From NCBI RefSeq assembly GCF_013122565.1, contig NZ_CP053258.1: a stretch of DNA of 64,000 bases; one strand, written 5' to 3'. The stretch comes from Escherichia coli. Lineage in GTDB: Bacteria > Pseudomonadota > Gammaproteobacteria > Enterobacterales > Enterobacteriaceae. Positions 11,601-20,600 of this stretch are shown piece by piece; the first letter of the stretch is position 1; each line of letters starts with the position of its first letter. A program made the position numbers.

Positions 11601-14600
11601 GTGCACGCTGCATGGCTTCAGTGGCTTTAACGACTTCCATTTGCTGCTCAAACTGAGCGATACGCTGCGCTGTCGCTGTAACTGCTTTTTCCACGCCATC
11701 ACGGGAGACTTCCAGATTCGACAACACTTGCTCTTCAGCGGTAATGAGATTCTCAAGGCGCGCGATTTCTTCAGCAACTTCGTTAATCAACGACGGATTA
11801 ACGTTCTTGCTTAACGCTTCCAGCGCACGAGCTTCCAGACTGGCTTTGCGCTCACGTAAATCTTTCAGCTTATCGTGACTTAACTTCACCCGCGCCAGCA
11901 GATCAACGCGAGATTTTCCGGCTTTATCGAGTTCAGCTTTAGCGTCACGAATATGCTGTTCCAGCATGCGCACACCCTGGGTTTCTTCAATGGATTCTTC
12001 CGCCTGAGAGATAAACGATTTCCCCAGCGTAAATAAACTTTTTAAAATTCCCATAAATACCCGTCCTTGTAATTAGTGTGAATATTCTTCTGTAATTTCA
12101 GCCAGATCCAATGCGTTATCTACCAGCGAGGTTATCTCAAGCAGGATATCTTCAAGAGAAGATTTAAGCGATAACGCACCGAAAACAATGTAATACTCTT
12201 CTTGTTGTACGCTGGAGATTCCTACCGATGACAACGGCATCATCTTCTGATTTCTTAATAAGAAGGTATTAAATTCATCTGGATTGCTGATACTACTTAC
12301 CGGACAAATAAAGGTTTCGATAATCATTTGGCGGGAAGTAAAAAGAATATTGATTTGCAAATCGCCATAATCATTCATTTTAATAATTAATGCGTTCTCG
12401 CTATTTGTTACATCAATATTTTGTTCATGTTCAGTTTGCAGCGCCGTCGCCAGCGCCAACGGATTCCATGTCATATATTATTCCATATAGATTAAGTTTA
12501 AATATTAATAAAATGAATATTTGCAGTACATAATTATCTTACCAGCTATAGACAAAAAAAAACCATCCAAATCTGGATGGCTATTAAGAAGAACCAAAAA
12601 TTTAACGCTATGCATACGATAAAAAATGCGCCAGTCTACATACACTGACGCTAATGATTAGTCACTACAAGTCTAACGACCGCTTCCACAACATAAAATC
12701 AAACTGTTCGAGTTTGTCTGCCTTCACGACGTAGTCCTTACTGGCAGTTTCAATAACTTTTTCAAATAATTCTCTACTCACATCTTCCAGCGGAGTGCCG
12801 TCAATCACTGGGCCACAGTCGAAATCAATCATGTCAGACAATCGTCTGGCAATCGTGCTGTTGGTGGATATTTTTAACACCGGAACAATCGGGTTACCGG
12901 TGGGCGTACCAAGACCCGTCGAGAAGATAACCACATTACATCCTGCTGCTACCAATCCGGTTACCGCGTCCACGTCATTGCCCGGAGTACACACCAACGA
13001 TAATCCACTATCGGGCATAGGCTCAGCGTAATCGCATACACTCACAATTGGCGCTCGCCCGCCTTTTTTCGCTGCTCCGGTAGATTTTATTGCGTCAGTA
13101 ATCAACCCATCCGCGATGTTGCCAAAACTTGGGTTATCCGCAATGGTGGTATCGAAAAAGTTCGCTGTCTTTTCGTAGCCTTGCATTAGATTGAGGAACT
13201 TTTTTTTATCCTCAAGATTAATACAACGCTTAACCATATCACCTTCTGCCCCACATAATTCTGGAAATTCTGCTAACCCGGAAGCGCCACCAAGCGTTGT
13301 CAACCAGTCAGAAACCAGCCCCATTGCAGGGTTGCCGGAGATACCAGAAAAACCATCGGAACCACCACACTTCATCCCCACTTTGAGACAGGAAAGAGGG
13401 ACCTCTACTCTTTCTGTCGGCTTCACCGCTTTCATTGCCGCGAAAGTCTGCTGTAAAGCGGTCTGCATCATCCGCTCTTCGCTGTCCCACTCCTGTTGGA
13501 GAAAGTAGAGCGCAGGTTTATCAAATTCAGGATTACGTCTCGCCAGCGCATCCTTAAACATTTTCTGCTGCGCTTTTTCACATCCTAAACTGAATACCGT
13601 CATACCGATTACATTCGGATGGTCAGCATAAGCAGCTAATACATCGCACATAGTTTCACAGTCTGAAGTTGCACCACCACAACCACTGGTGACCGTAATA
13701 CAGCGAACACCTTCAATATGCGGAAACATTCTCGCGGTTTCGATCAGTTCATCGCTACCGGACGTCAGATTAAGAGCAAACTTTTTCAGTGAGTTATTGG
13801 TATAACCCAAAGCATCATTCAAAGCATTGGTTAACTTACTGACATTACGGTTCTCGCAAAATACCAATGGAAAGACTAACCAGTAACTGGCAGTACCCAC
13901 TCTGCCATCGTCACGGACATAACCTTTAAAAGTGCGGGTGCTCCAGTCAGAGACATCCGGTGCCTGCCAGTGGTAGGGTTCAACATCCTCCAGTGTGACA
14001 GGAGCTGCATAGTGGCGAATATTATCAACGGTAATCGCTTCTCCCTTAACGATGGGACGCGTGGCCTTGCCAACTGGCGTACCGTACATCGAAACAATGC
14101 CATCCAGAGGAATATCTTGCGTCGCAAACTTATGTTTAGCCTTAACATCAGTTACTAACGTTATGTTGTCGTCATCCCACGAGTACGATTCTCCAGCGTG
14201 CAGGTCTTTCAACGCGACAATGAGATTATCGTTACTGTCGATACGTAATATTTTTTGCATAATCATATTCTTCCAGTCAGATGTTCAATCTTATTAACTG
14301 TATGCTTTTGCTGCCTGTTGGCTCTTTTGCAGCAATCCAATCAATAATGCGCAGCCGATGGTAATTACAGACAACGCCATCAATCCGGCGATGCTGCTAT
14401 CCATTGCCCGATCAACCTCAACACGGATAAGAGGAGCAAGGAACGAGCAGAAAGCGCCCATCGTGGTGCAAAAACCGATCCCCGCAGCCAGTGCCGGACC
14501 AGTAAGAAGTTGTGGAGGGAAAGTCCAGAATATTGGCTGTACTGAGAGGAAACCAACCGCACTTAAACAAAGTGCACCAATCGCCACAACAGGCCCCGCA

Positions 14601-17600: not shown

Positions 17601-20600
17601 TCAACACCTTACAGGATATCAATATCGGTATTGATTCCCACCATTAAGGGTATTTTCCATTCGAAGCCCGATACGTAAAAATTATCGGGCTAACAAAATA
17701 TCCATTGAATGGATAGCGATGAACTAGCTGCGCTGGCGCACCGCTTCAAATAAGCAAATTCCGGTCGCAACCGAAACGTTCAGGGAAGAAACGCTTCCAG
17801 CCATCGGGATGCTGATCAACTCATCGCAATGTTCACGAGTCAGGCGACGCATACCTTCACCTTCCGCACCCATCACCAGCGCCAGGCGTCCGGTCATTTT
17901 GCTCTGATAGAGTGTATGATCCGCCTCGCCTGCCGTACCGACGATCCAGATATTCTCTTCCTGCAACATACGCATGGTGCGCGCAAGGTTAGTCACCCGA
18001 ATCAGCGGAACGTTTTCTGCCGCGCCGCAGGCTACTTTTTTCGCCGTGGCGTTGAGCTGTGCGGAGCGATCTTTCGGCACAATCACCGCATGAACGCCAG
18101 CGGCGTCCGCGCTACGCAGGCACGCGCCGAGGTTGTGCGGATCGGTTACACCGTCGAGGATCAGCAGGAACGGTTGATCGAGCGAAGCGATCAGATCCGG
18201 CAGATCGTTTTCCTGATACTGACGTCCTGGCTTCACACGGGCAATAATGCCCTGATGCACGGCACCGTCGCTTTTCTCGTCGAGATACTGACGGTTCGCC
18301 AACTGGATAACCACGCCCTGGGACTCAAGGGCGTGAATCAGCGGTAACAGACGTTTATCTTCACGGCCTTTTAAAATAAAGACTTCCTGAAAACGTTCAG
18401 GGGCGCGCTCCAGCAGGGCCTGCACTGCGTGGATGCCGTAAATCATTTCGCTCATTAATGTACTCGTTGTTTACGTTTTGCCTGATGCACTACGTTTATC
18501 CGGCCTACATGATCTCTGCAATATATTGAATTTGCGTGATTATGTAGGCCGGATAAGGCGTTCACGCCGCATCCGGCATGAACAAAGCGCATTTTGTCAG
18601 CAATCTAACCCTCTTCTTTTAAAGAGGGTAATGATCACTCTGCCACTTTTTTCTTCGCCGCACGCTTCGCTTTGGTCGCTGCAGCTATTTTCTGCGTTTT
18701 CGCCGATGGCTTTTTCGCTTTTCTCGCGTCTTTCTTCGCTGCTTTCGGCTTCGTTTTTTTCTCACCGCGGAAGGCGCTGTCTGGCTCAAAGTTTACCTTT
18801 TTACCGACCTGACGACGCTTGCCGCCTTTTTTACCTGTATCGCCTTTTTTCGCTTTCTCGCGCGCCGTTTTACCGACGTTGCGCGGTGCGCGTTCGCTGG
18901 AGATCAGGCTAAAGTCGATTTTGCGCTCGTCCATATTAACCGCTTCGACGCGAACTTCCACGCGATCGCCCAGACGATAAGTCTGGCCGCTGGATTCACC
19001 CATCAGCCGTTGCCCTACCTGGTCAAAGCGATAGTAGTCATTGTCCAGCGAAGAGACATGGACCAGACCATCAATGAACAAGTCGTCCAGACGGACGAAG
19101 AAGCCAAAGCCAGTGACGCTGGAAATTACGCCTTTAAAGACGTTACCTACCTGGTCGAGCATGAAGTCACACTTCAGCCAGTCAGCTACATCGCGCGTTG
19201 CTTCGTCGGCACGACGTTCCGCCATCGAACAGTGCTGACCCAGTTGCAGCATCTCTTCCATCGAATAATGGTAGCCGCCGGTTTCAGTGGTGTTGCCCTG
19301 ATGCCCCTGCTCTTTCGCCAGCAGATATTTAATGGCGCGGTGCAACGTCAGGTCAGGATAACGACGAATCGGCGAAGTAAAGTGCGCATAGGACTGCAAT
19401 GCCAGACCGAAGTGACCACGGTTTTCCGGATCGTAAATTGCCTGTTTCATCGAGCGCAGCAGCATGGTTTGCAGCATTTCTGCATCAGGACGATCGGCAA
19501 CCGACTCCAGCAGCTCCGCGTAGTCACGCGGTTCCGGCTTGTTACCACCCGGCAGTTCCAGCCCCAGCTCCGCCAGAACAGAACGGAAAGAGGTAATCGC
19601 TTCGGTGCTCGGCTTGTCGTGAATACGGAACAGTGCCGGTTCTTTGGCTTTCTCAACGAAACGCGCCGCCGAGATATTCGCCAGAATCATGCACTCTTCA
19701 ATTAACTTGTGCGCGTCGTTACGCTGAGTCTGTTCGATACGCTCAATACGGCGTTCAGCGTTGAAAATAAACTTCGCTTCTTCGCTCTCAAATGAGATCC
19801 CACCGCGTTCTTCACGGGCTTTATCCAGCACTTTATAAAGGTTATGCAACTCTTCGAGATGCTTAACCAGCGGGGCGTATTGCTCGCGCAGATCCTGATC
19901 GCCCTGCAGAATATGCCAGACTTTGGTGTAGGTCAGACGCGCGTGAGAGCTCATCACCGCTTCGTAGAATTTGTAGCCAGTCAGGCGGCCTTTCGACGAA
20001 ACCGTCATCTCGCACACCATACACAGGCGGTCTACCTGCGGGTTGAGCGAACACAGGCCGTTAGAGAGCACTTCCGGCAGCATCGGGATAACCTGCGAAG
20101 GGAAGTACACCGACGTGCCACGGTTACGCGCTTCTCTGTCCAGCGGCGTTGGCGGACGCACATAGTAGCTGACGTCGGCAATCGCGACCCATAAACGCCA
20201 GCCGCCGCCGCGTTTTTTCTCGCAGTAAACTGCATCGTCAAAGTCACGGGCGTCTTCGCCATCAATGGTGACCAGCGGTAAATCACGCAGATCGACACGG
20301 CCCGCTTTTGCTTCTTCCGGCACTTCTTCTTTCAGCCCGGCAACCTGTTGCTCAACAGCCTGCGGCCAGATGTACGGAATTTCATGGGTACGCAGAGCGA
20401 TATCAACCGCCATGCCGGTGCCCATATTGTCGCCCAGCACTTCGACGATTTTACCCACCGCTTTGGTACGGCGAGTCGGGCGTTGGGTCAGTTCAACTAC
20501 GACCACAAAGCCCATCCGCGCGCCCATGATCTGATCGGGCGGGATTAAGATATCGAAGCTCAGACGGCTATCGTCAGGAACCACAAAGCCGACGCCCGCT

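What the first reader, a model, noticed from the sequence alone, without database searches (positions are those of the whole stretch)
12475..17723. The insertion changes the transcriptional context of rlmB and yjfIJKLMC
As I recall K-12, nsrR-rnr-rlmB runs directly into yjfI. Here rlmB is followed by a 9-bp perfect inverted repeat (17665-17691) and then the convergent IclR gene. yjfI is preceded by a ~190-bp AT-rich spacer (12475-12664) carrying the island operon terminator. The yjf genes therefore probably need their own promoter, and read-through from rlmB would run antisense to the IclR gene.
Basis: inference. Interest (0 to 1): 0.3.

Follow-up and report, generated by a model that had tools for sequence, protein, structure and literature searches.

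The report
Sugar-acid cassette between rlmB and its terminator
A 5.1-kb self-contained sugar-acid utilisation cassette, carried by about 9% of E. coli genomes, sits exactly between the rlmB stop codon and rlmB's own terminator; rlmB loses that terminator, but the DNA just upstream of yjfI is unchanged, so this is an ordinary accessory-gene insertion.

Summary
One key attribution is wrong. The 190-bp AT-rich spacer before yjfI holds two tandem intrinsic terminators on the minus strand.

- **T1 (12651→12628, then AUUUUUUAU)** belongs to the island.
- **T2 (12582→12561, then U9)** is the ancestral rlmB terminator. It is identical in island-free genomes, including K-12.

The island spans 12583-17720 (5,138 bp). 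It replaces 15 nt lying between rlmB's stop codon (+3 nt) and the foot of that hairpin. All 109 bp upstream of yjfI are therefore ancestral.

In K-12 this stretch already separates rlmB from yjfI with a strong terminator. It also binds RNA polymerase in a published SELEX screen, and yjfIJKL behaves there as an independent regulatory unit. So the yjf genes did not newly come to need a promoter.

What does change is the following:
- rlmB now ends in a weak hairpin with a U-tract (17715→17692), followed by a 9-bp hairpin without a U-tract, which is the 3' hairpin of the IclR gene.
- rlmB faces a convergent gene.
- Any rlmB→yjfI read-through must now cross 5.1 kb and two terminators.

The cassette has close architectural relatives in Leminorella and Morganella at unrelated loci. 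Interest is low.

The parts
12073..12474 (-). yjfI (DUF2170), first gene of yjfIJKLMC; intact in this window
   Evidence: ORF; Pfam DUF2170; RefSeq annotation of near-identical loci
12475..12553 (-). Ancestral AT-rich yjfI leader and promoter region. It contains the SELEX-proposed TTAATA-17-TGGAAT at 12508->12480.
   Evidence: Identical, apart from scattered SNPs, in island-free and island-bearing genomes. Shimada 2014 lists this motif for the K-12 rlmB>yjfI spacer. My PWM scan scores it, and every other candidate here, as weak.
12554..12582 (-). T2, the ancestral rlmB intrinsic terminator: AGCCAUCCAGAUUUGGAUGG plus U9 (T-run 12554-12562). It now lies downstream of the island operon.
   Evidence: Terminator scan. 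Hairpin -11.9 kcal/mol with 7 U in the first 8 tail bases. Same sequence 18 nt after the rlmB stop in strains T2, SE15 and MG1655.
12583..17720 (.). Accessory island (5,138 bp, 44.1% G+C) that replaces 15 nt of the ancestral spacer
   Evidence: Junctions from alignments A1 and A3. Present in full in 512 of 5,426 genomes; 4,874 have the empty site. SNP trough inside the island. G+C.
12618..12651 (-). T1, the island operon's own intrinsic terminator: GCGUCAGU-loop8-ACUGGCGC followed by AUUUUUUAU
   Evidence: -12.2 kcal/mol with 6 U of 8. The Leminorella and Morganella modules each have a terminator at the same relative place after their UxaA gene.
12665..14260 (-). UxaA/GarD-family sugar-acid dehydratase (SAF + GD_AH domains)
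   Evidence: Pfam. Scores below the GarD cut-off in NCBIfam. Best solved relative is GarD, 6u7l.
14294..15595 (-). MFS transporter, most similar to the D-galactonate transporter subfamily
15646..16539 (-). DHDPS-family protein, probably a 2-keto-3-deoxy-sugar-acid aldolase
   Evidence: Pfam DHDPS. Best solved relative is E. coli YagE, E = 5e-48.
16560..16597 (.). Operator-like block conserved across genera (GTTTGTAT...GTTTGTATATATGAACAAT on the minus strand), just downstream of the operon promoter
   Evidence: Nearly invariant in the alignment of the E. coli, Leminorella and Morganella regulatory regions. Includes the palindrome found.
16605..16632 (-). Island operon promoter candidate TTGACT-16-TATACT
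   Evidence: Best promoter-like site of the region, 10 of 12 matches. The -35 element is conserved in all three genera and the -10 in E. coli and Leminorella.
16806..16834 (+). IclR gene promoter candidate TTTACT-17-TAGAAT
   Evidence: both hexamers conserved in Leminorella and Morganella
16868..17647 (+). IclR-family regulator, divergent from the operon and convergent with rlmB (the ORF extends upstream to 16847)
17665..17691 (.). It is the 3' hairpin of the IclR gene and has no U-tract on either strand.
   Evidence: 2 U of 8 on the minus strand, 1 of 8 on the plus strand. The Leminorella and Morganella modules also carry a hairpin after their IclR gene.
17692..17715 (-). Hairpin A (UAUCCAU-UCA-AUGGAUA) followed by UUUUGUU. 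This is the only terminator-shaped element left directly after rlmB, and it is weak.
   Evidence: 8-bp inverted repeat; -4.9 to -5.7 kcal/mol, 6 U of 8. It did not pass the terminator scan because it has fewer than 3 G-C pairs.
17724..18455 (-). rlmB; its stop codon (17726-17724) lies 3 nt from the island's right end
   Evidence: NCBIfam RlmB equivalog, 490 bits; junction

Best explanation
A complete catabolic cassette has been placed in the 18-nt gap between the rlmB stop codon and the foot of rlmB's intrinsic terminator. The cassette comprises an IclR regulator, two promoters, an operator-like block, an aldolase, an MFS transporter, a dehydratase, its own terminator T1, and a hairpin after the IclR gene.

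Consequences, with their status:
1. **Shown by sequence.** rlmB is separated from its strong terminator T2. It is now followed by a weak hairpin with a U-tract (A) and by the U-less IclR 3' hairpin (B).
2. **Inferred.** rnr-rlmB transcripts end partly at A. The remainder runs antisense into the IclR gene, where the untranslated RNA is probably stopped by Rho.
3. **Shown.** The island operon runs in the same direction as rlmB and yjfI and ends at T1, with ancestral T2 immediately behind it. Two tandem terminators therefore insulate yjfI.
4. **Shown.** The 109 bp upstream of yjfI are ancestral.
5. **Inferred from K-12 literature.** yjfIJKLMC is driven from this conserved region, exactly as in island-free strains.
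6. **Inferred.** The weak rlmB-to-yjfI read-through coupling reported for K-12 (the nsrR-rnr-rlmB-yjfI(J) unit) is abolished, or replaced by possible read-through from the island operon when it is induced.
For: - **Junctions and ancestry of T2.** Alignments A1 and A3 against strains T2 and SE15, plus the MG1655 sequence.
- **Terminators and energies.**
- **The island is derived and recently spread.**
  - It is present in full in 512 of 5,426 genomes, and 4,874 have the empty site.
  - The island is at least 99% identical in every genome that has it.
  - Between three haplotypes with different flanks, nearly every 400-bp bin inside the island shows 0-4 differences, against 2-25 in the flanks. 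The one exception is a bin in the regulatory region with 12. The change is sharp at both junctions.
  - G+C is 44% against 49-54% in the flanks.
  - Salmonella has rnr-yjfH-yjfI adjacent (PMC3534368).
- **The cassette is self-contained.** The same four genes in the same architecture occur in Leminorella richardii (88% dehydratase identity) and Morganella morganii (81%) at unrelated loci. DNA homology stops at the coding ends. Each module has its own terminator or hairpin. Promoters and the operator-like block are conserved.
- **The yjf operon is autonomous in K-12.** An RpoD-holoenzyme SELEX site lies in the rlmB>yjfI spacer. yjfIJKL is an iModulon of its own. It is reported as strongly up-regulated in strains carrying a (T)9->8 deletion at 4410053, which the authors predict to be the cause. 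I mapped that position onto the terminator's T-run.
Against: - No transcript data exist for any island-bearing strain, so every statement about where RNAs start or stop is inference.
- No convincing sigma-70 promoter can be read from the yjfI upstream region. The best candidates score 8 of 12 matches or about 4-5 bits.
- The published K-12 transcription unit nsrR-rnr-rlmB-yjfI(J) implies some read-through of T2. The activating (T)9->8 mutation lies in the terminator's U-tract. Both facts are compatible with yjf expression depending on upstream transcription.
- Hairpin A is marginal as a terminator, so the real 3' end of rlmB mRNA is unknown.
Confidence: 0.7

Rival explanations
1. In K-12-type strains yjfIJKLMC is fed mainly by read-through from nsrR-rnr-rlmB, so the insertion cuts the yjf genes off and forces them to rely on a separate or new promoter.
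For: - The operon is listed as nsrR-rnr-rlmB-yjfI(J) in secondary sources citing Cairrao 2003.
- The only mutation reported with yjfIJKL activation, (T)9->8, lies in the U-tract of the rlmB terminator. That could act by weakening termination.
- No strong promoter motif is visible upstream of yjfI.
- About half of the island-bearing genomes carry a yjf operon with three nonsense mutations.
Against: - K-12 has a canonical terminator between rlmB and yjfI: about -12 to -14 kcal/mol followed by U9.
- yjfIJKL forms an iModulon of its own in PRECISE-1K, which I read as regulation separate from rnr-rlmB.
- RNA polymerase holoenzyme binds the spacer in vitro.
- Going from U9 to U8 is not expected to abolish termination.
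- Four other island-bearing haplotypes and this window keep all six yjf genes intact.
- yjfI Q40* also occurs in an island-free genome.
Confidence: 0.2
2. The 9-bp hairpin (17665-17691), alone or with hairpin A, is an efficient bidirectional terminator. It fully insulates rlmB and the IclR gene from each other, so no antisense read-through occurs.
For: - The stem is stable at -12.7 kcal/mol, and the composite plus-strand fold has z = -4.1.
- It lies exactly between two convergent stop codons.
- Homologous modules also carry a hairpin after their IclR gene.
Against: - There is no U-tract after the stem on either strand: 2 of 8 and 1 of 8. The U-rich runs lie on the 5' side in both directions.
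- It failed the terminator scan.
Confidence: 0.25
3. The four genes are ancestral to E. coli at this locus, and the 126-bp spacer of K-12 is a deletion scar.
For: Neither state is a simple subset of the other: 15 nt are unique to the empty site. The island has no mobility genes.
Against: - The island shows roughly 5- to 10-fold lower diversity than its flanks, with sharp boundaries.
- About 9% of genomes carry it.
- Its G+C is lower than the flanks.
- Salmonella has rlmB (yjfH) next to yjfI.
- The nearest relatives of the module sit at other loci in other families.
Confidence: 0.03

Closest known systems
K-12 rlmB-yjfI intergenic region (MG1655 4410007-4410132) with the rlmB intrinsic terminator
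   Same: Window 12475-12582 is the same DNA: hairpin AGCCATCCAGATTTGGATGG, the T9 run, and the 79 nt leading to the yjfI ATG.
   Different: Here the hairpin is 5.1 kb from rlmB instead of 18 nt. The A-tract that extends the stem in K-12 (GAAAAGCC) is replaced by island sequence (TTAATAGCC). A second terminator, T1, lies 45 nt upstream of it.
E. coli K-12 yagEF-yagI and yjhGH-yjhI modules (non-phosphorylative sugar-acid catabolism on prophage-like elements). The comparison rests on my own knowledge except for the YagE match.
   Same: A DHDPS-family 2-keto-3-deoxy-sugar-acid aldolase (best solved relative is YagE) combined with a sugar-acid dehydratase, a transporter and an IclR-family regulator.
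   Different: The dehydratase here belongs to the UxaA/GarD family, not the IlvD/Edd family. The transporter is of the MFS type. The substrate is unknown. The location is a core intergenic spacer rather than a prophage remnant.
Homologous four-gene modules in Leminorella richardii and Morganella morganii
   Same: Same gene order and orientation (IclR divergent from aldolase-MFS-dehydratase). Conserved promoter hexamers and operator-like block. Own terminator after the dehydratase gene and a hairpin after the IclR gene.
   Different: The dehydratase protein is 81-88% identical and the DNA is about 71-74% identical. The neighbours are unrelated: fimbrial genes in one case, and ThiF/JAB/SAVED genes in the other. 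The untranslated ends are not alignable.
Pseudomonas aeruginosa bacABCDEF operon (homologues of yjfI, yjfJ and further genes)
   Same: A six-gene operon headed by a DUF2170 gene followed by a PspA/IM30 gene. It is transcribed as one unit, with a promoter proposed directly upstream of its first gene (PMC10948618). That fits yjfIJKLMC being an autonomous unit.
   Different: A sigma-54 promoter is proposed there. No GG-N10-GC site exists upstream of yjfI here.

Membership tests
Intrinsic (Rho-independent) terminator: T2, 12554-12582 minus strand | Stable G+C-containing stem-loop | tested here: met
   9-bp stem, 4-nt loop, -11.9 kcal/mol
Intrinsic (Rho-independent) terminator: T2, 12554-12582 minus strand | U-tract immediately 3' of the stem | tested here: met
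   U9; 7 U in the first 8 tail bases
Intrinsic (Rho-independent) terminator: T2, 12554-12582 minus strand | RNA 3' ends mapped at the U-tract | not testable with these tools
   No Term-seq data could be reached. The supplements of PMC7815308 hold no entry for rlmB or yjfI.
Intrinsic terminator: T1, 12618-12651 minus strand | Stem-loop followed by a U-tract, downstream of the last gene of the operon | tested here: met
   8-bp stem (one G-U pair), -12.2 kcal/mol, AUUUUUUAU, starting 13 nt after the UxaA-family stop codon. Terminators at the equivalent place in Leminorella and Morganella.
Intrinsic terminator: hairpin B (the 9-bp inverted repeat, 17665-17691) | Stable stem-loop | tested here: met
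   -12.7 kcal/mol for the hairpin; z = -3.2 for the 46-nt stretch around it
Intrinsic terminator: hairpin B (the 9-bp inverted repeat, 17665-17691) | U-tract 3' of the stem | tested here: not met
   2 of 8 U on the minus strand and 1 of 8 on the plus strand. Absent from the terminator scan.
Intrinsic terminator: hairpin A (17692-17715 minus strand) | Stable stem-loop followed by a U-tract | tested here: inconclusive
   The U-tract UUUUGUU is present, but the stem is only -4.9 to -5.7 kcal/mol with 2 G-C pairs. It falls below the scan's criteria.
Classical mobile genomic island | Integrase, transposase or other mobility gene | tested here: not met
   The four genes encode a dehydratase, a transporter, an aldolase-like protein and a regulator.
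Classical mobile genomic island | Flanking direct repeats or a tRNA target | tested here: not met
   Similarity between the two junction segments is at chance level: 49% of shuffles score at least as high. No tRNA gene in 9000-22000.
Classical mobile genomic island | Patchy distribution and atypical composition | tested here: met
   512 of 5,426 genomes; 44.1% G+C against 49-54% in the flanks
K-12 transcription unit nsrR-rnr-rlmB-yjfI(J) | rlmB and yjfI adjacent on one strand with a short spacer | tested here: not met
   The same strand is kept, but 5,249 bp now lie between the two genes instead of 126 bp. This stretch includes a convergent gene and two terminators.
K-12 transcription unit nsrR-rnr-rlmB-yjfI(J) | Continuous transcript from rlmB into yjfI | not testable with these tools
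   Needs RNA data from an island-bearing strain
Sigma-70 promoter directly upstream of yjfI | Recognisable -35 and -10 hexamers | tested here: inconclusive
   TTAATA-17-TGGAAT gives 8 of 12 matches. All candidates score about 4-5 bits.
Sigma-70 promoter directly upstream of yjfI | Same sequence as the K-12 spacer that bound RpoD holoenzyme | tested here: met
   The motif is identical in this window and in K-12-type spacers.
Sigma-54 promoter (as proposed for the P. aeruginosa bac operon) | GG-N10-GC core, as in TGGCAC-N5-TTGCA | tested here: not met
   No site in 12440-12700 has both core dinucleotides.
IclR-controlled sugar-acid catabolic cassette | IclR regulator divergent from a dehydratase-aldolase-transporter operon, with conserved promoter and operator | tested here: met
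   Domains; conserved regulatory blocks across three genera
IclR-controlled sugar-acid catabolic cassette | Known substrate or inducer | not testable with these tools
   The dehydratase scores 220 bits against a GarD cut-off of 731. The aldolase-like protein is below every equivalog cut-off.

The most novel reading that the evidence does not exclude
The rlmB terminator may double as a cis-acting switch for the yjfIJKL envelope-stress operon. A one-base loss in its T9 run is the mutation reported with activation of the operon in K-12. T8 alleles also seem to occur in natural genomes.

The island is wedged against the foot of this hairpin, so it uncouples the switch from rnr-rlmB transcription. 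If yjf expression depends on polymerases arriving from upstream, island carriers would be yjf-silent. That would explain why about half of them carry a yjf operon with three nonsense mutations and why others have IS1 deletions.
Probability: 0.1. Interest if true: 0.5.

Novelty: new member of a known kind. Interest (0 to 1): 0.22.

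Why it matters
The main value is a correction. Sequence next to an insertion is not necessarily part of it. Here the 'island terminator' nearest yjfI is the host gene's own terminator, captured by the newcomer operon.

The case is a tidy example of how a self-contained catabolic cassette can enter a core operon region with little disturbance. The downstream promoter region stays intact, and the cassette gains a second terminator. The cost falls on the upstream gene (rlmB), which is left with a poor 3' end and a convergent neighbour.

The case also links two published K-12 observations that had not been connected. The yjfIJKL-associated (T)9->8 mutation lies in the U-tract of the rlmB terminator. 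None of this is surprising to a specialist.

Tried and rejected
- **Flanking direct repeat.** Hairpin A and T2 look alike by eye (ATCCA...TGGAT followed by a T-run). Local alignment scores 14 and 49% of shuffles do as well. Rejected.
- **(T)9->8 creating or improving a sigma-70 promoter.** A PWM scan of the K-12 spacer gives identical candidates and scores with T9 and T8. No support; the mechanism stays open.
- **Sigma-54 promoter upstream of yjfI,** by analogy with P. aeruginosa bacA. None found.
- **Known RNA families in the two spacers.** Rfam gave only sub-threshold REP-derived hits, and these lie between rnr and rlmB.
- **yjf decay as a general consequence of the island.**
  - The triple-nonsense allele is a single haplotype.
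  - Four other island haplotypes and this window have intact yjf genes.
  - yjfI Q40* also occurs alone in an island-free genome.
- **Published 3'-end, TSS or operon tables for K-12.** Nothing retrievable for rlmB or yjfI.
- **Literature on this insertion.** None found.
- **Close donor among GTDB species representatives.** The best matches were only 70% identical, in Klebsiella. The protein search then found closer relatives in Leminorella (88%) and Morganella (81%), still not a direct donor.
- **A 51-nt T8 query.** It returned nothing, probably because of the low-complexity filter. Repeated with a 150-nt query.

Full report
**Anatomy.** From 8 to 23 kb the window carries, on the minus strand, yjfC-yjfM-yjfL-yjfK-yjfJ-yjfI (yjfI at 12073-12474). 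These are followed by three extra genes, then rlmB (17724-18455), rnr, nsrR and purA. One extra gene lies on the plus strand. The extra genes are:
- a UxaA/GarD-family dehydratase (12665-14260);
- an MFS transporter (14294-15595);
- a DHDPS-family protein (15646-16539);
- an IclR-family regulator (16868-17647, plus strand).

The DHDPS-family protein's best solved relative is the E. coli 2-keto-3-deoxy-sugar-acid aldolase YagE. The dehydratase's best solved relative is GarD.

**Checking the observation.**
- The 9-bp perfect inverted repeat is at 17665-17673 / 17683-17691. The hairpin folds at -12.7 kcal/mol, and a 46-nt stretch around it has z = -3.2 against shuffles.
- The IclR gene converges on rlmB, with 76 bp between the two stop codons.
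- The spacer 12475-12664 is 190 bp and 28% G+C.
- The spacer contains the two top terminator-like sites of the region.

The description is therefore accurate.

**What the spacer really contains.** Of 5,426 complete E. coli genomes, 512 carry the four genes in full and 4,874 have an empty site. In the empty site rlmB and yjfI are 126 bp apart.

I aligned the empty site with the two ends of the insertion and with MG1655 itself. Window 12475-12582 is ancestral DNA. It includes the hairpin AGCCAUCCAGAUUUGGAUGG and its U9 tract, which in K-12 begins 18 nt after the rlmB stop codon. This is rlmB's own intrinsic terminator (T2; -11.9 kcal/mol).

The island spans 12583-17720 (5,138 bp). It replaces 15 nt of the ancestral spacer. 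Its right end lies 3 nt from the rlmB stop codon, and its left end abuts the first base of the terminator stem.

Inside the island, 13 nt after the dehydratase stop codon, lies a second terminator (T1; 12651->12628 followed by AUUUUUUAU; -12.2 kcal/mol). So yjfI is preceded by two tandem terminators. One was brought in by the island and the other was captured from the host.

**Is it an insertion?** Four lines of evidence say yes.
- The island is at least 99% identical in every genome that has it.
- Between three haplotypes with different flanks, nearly every 400-bp bin inside the island shows 0-4 differences, against 2-25 in the flanks. The change is sharp at both junctions. One bin in the regulatory region shows 12; this is the SNP cluster described under side observations.
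- G+C is 44%, against 49-54% in the flanks.
- Salmonella has rnr-yjfH(rlmB)-yjfI adjacent (PMC3534368).

The island has no integrase, no significant flanking repeat and no nearby tRNA gene. The way it entered is therefore unknown. Spread within the species by homologous recombination through the flanks is the simplest reading, but this is an inference.

**The cassette is self-contained.**
- The closest relatives of the dehydratase outside E. coli are in Leminorella richardii (88%) and in Morganella and Providencia (80-81%).
- In Leminorella and Morganella the same four genes occur in the same arrangement, at unrelated loci.
- DNA similarity to the E. coli island stops at the coding ends (window 17623->12663).
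- Each of the two modules has its own terminator after the dehydratase gene and its own hairpin after the IclR gene. So T1 and the 9-bp hairpin belong to the cassette.
- The divergent regulatory region shows conserved blocks across the three genera. These are TTGACT-16-TATACT for the operon (16632->16605), TTTACT-17-TAGAAT for the regulator gene (16806-16834), and an operator-like block (16560-16597).

**Consequences for rlmB.** rlmB has lost its strong terminator. On its strand it is now followed by:
- hairpin A (17715->17699; -4.9 to -5.7 kcal/mol; only two G-C pairs) with UUUUGUU after it;
- hairpin B, the 9-bp repeat, which has no U-tract on either strand.

I infer leaky termination at A, with the rest of the transcripts running antisense into the IclR gene. 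Such RNA would be untranslated and is the usual substrate of Rho. This rests on established knowledge and was not tested.

**Consequences for yjfIJKLMC.** The proximal 109 bp are unchanged, so whatever drives yjfI in K-12 is still present.
- Genomic SELEX placed a constitutive RpoD-holoenzyme site in the K-12 rlmB>yjfI spacer. The proposed motif is TTAATA-17-TGGAAT (PMC3946193). That motif is intact here at 12508->12480.
- In the PRECISE-1K compendium, yjfIJKL forms an iModulon of its own. It is strongly up-regulated only in strains carrying a (T)9->8 deletion at MG1655 4410053, which the authors predict to be the cause (PMC12492005).
- I mapped that coordinate onto the last T of the terminator's T-run, 4410045-4410053. 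This equals window 12554-12562, which still has nine T.
- The homologous six-gene operon of P. aeruginosa is transcribed as one unit, with a promoter proposed upstream of its first gene (PMC10948618).

Against this, secondary sources list nsrR-rnr-rlmB-yjfI(J) as one unit. I could not read any strong promoter from the sequence. My conclusion is that the need for a separate yjf promoter pre-dates the insertion. The insertion's effect on yjf is limited to removing whatever read-through from rlmB existed, and to placing an inducible, co-directional operon behind two terminators upstream.

**Side observations.**
- *Nonsense haplotype.* The yjfI Q40* 63-mer is found in 248 genomes, and 246 genomes match the yjfI-to-island query from the nonsense-carrying strain ETEC4085 at 99% identity or better. 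This suggests that roughly half of the island carriers share that haplotype. I did not obtain the joint count. The three genomes I inspected carry three nonsense mutations: yjfI Q40*, yjfJ E79* and yjfM W127*.
- *Recombination next to the island.* Those three genomes share the island and the left flank but differ to the right of 17793. This points to recombination beside the island.
- *Intact carriers.* Four other island-bearing genomes and this window have intact yjf genes.
- *Q40* without the island.* Q40* alone occurs in an island-free strain. This is one haplotype's history, not a general effect of the island.
- *IS1 deletions.* Two genomes have IS1-mediated deletions that remove yjf genes next to, or together with, the island.
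- *T8 alleles.* Genomes with a T8 run exist in several sequence backgrounds. At least 12 exact K-12-type matches were found, and 3 of about 54 evenly sampled rows have a record span consistent with T8. Homopolymer errors in long-read assemblies could produce the same pattern.

**Verdict.** This is an ordinary accessory catabolic cassette in a core intergenic spacer. Its one notable detail is its position between a stop codon and that gene's terminator. I found no literature describing this insertion. All functional statements still need transcript mapping.

Noticed in passing
L011 2000-4891 (ETEC4085); also L012 and L013. Window equivalents: yjfI codon 40 (about 12355-12357), yjfJ codon 79, yjfM codon 127: In the three genomes inspected, one island-bearing haplotype carries three separate nonsense mutations in the neighbouring operon: yjfI Q40* (CAA>TAA), yjfJ E79* (GAA>TAA) and yjfM W127* (TGG>TAG). 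The Q40* 63-mer occurs in 248 genomes, and 246 genomes match the yjfI-to-island query at 99% identity or better. That suggests about half of all island carriers. The window's own yjf genes are intact.
   Followed up: partly
L020 2949-3350 (strain 214-4, empty site): The same yjfI Q40* change occurs alone in an island-free genome whose yjfJ and yjfM are intact. It is either an independent hit or a recombinant.
   Followed up: partly
Window 12554-12562; MG1655 4410045-4410053 (L017 146-154): The (T)9->8 deletion published with yjfIJKL activation in heat-evolved K-12 lies in the U-tract of the rlmB intrinsic terminator, a link the paper does not make. T8 alleles also appear in complete genomes of several sequence backgrounds. 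At least 12 are exact K-12-type matches, and about 5% of sampled rows have a matching record span. Homopolymer assembly errors cannot be excluded.
   Followed up: partly
L009 4220-4917 (S163-2) and L008 5248-5945 (TUM9757): Both genomes have IS1A-mediated deletions next to the island. S163-2 has lost yjfI to yjfL and part of yjfM, with IS1 inserted at about window 12555. TUM9757 has lost most of the island, yjfI and the 5' end of yjfJ, leaving 223 bp of the IclR gene's 3' end.
   Followed up: partly
Hits H40, H47 and H48: Some island copies carry IS insertions. IS2 lies between or within the transporter and aldolase genes. IS421 and ISVsa5 each split the MFS transporter gene.
   Followed up: no
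Window 16626-16720: The nonsense-carrying haplotype has a cluster of about 12 SNPs confined to the island's divergent regulatory region. One lies next to the operon's -35 element. The rest of the island is nearly invariant.
   Followed up: partly
Window 18492-18583 (between rnr and rlmB): REP-type repeats lie here. Rfam gives sub-threshold hits to naRNA4 and ES036. They probably explain the median of 34 matching places per genome. Strain SE15 has a spacer about 90 bp shorter at this position.
   Followed up: no
summary: One of the 519 island matches lies on a record labelled as a plasmid.
   Followed up: no
L016 1-2559 (Morganella morganii): The homologous cassette in Morganella sits beside ThiF, JAB and SAVED-domain genes, which look like a CBASS-type defence locus. 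This suggests a variable genomic region.
   Followed up: no
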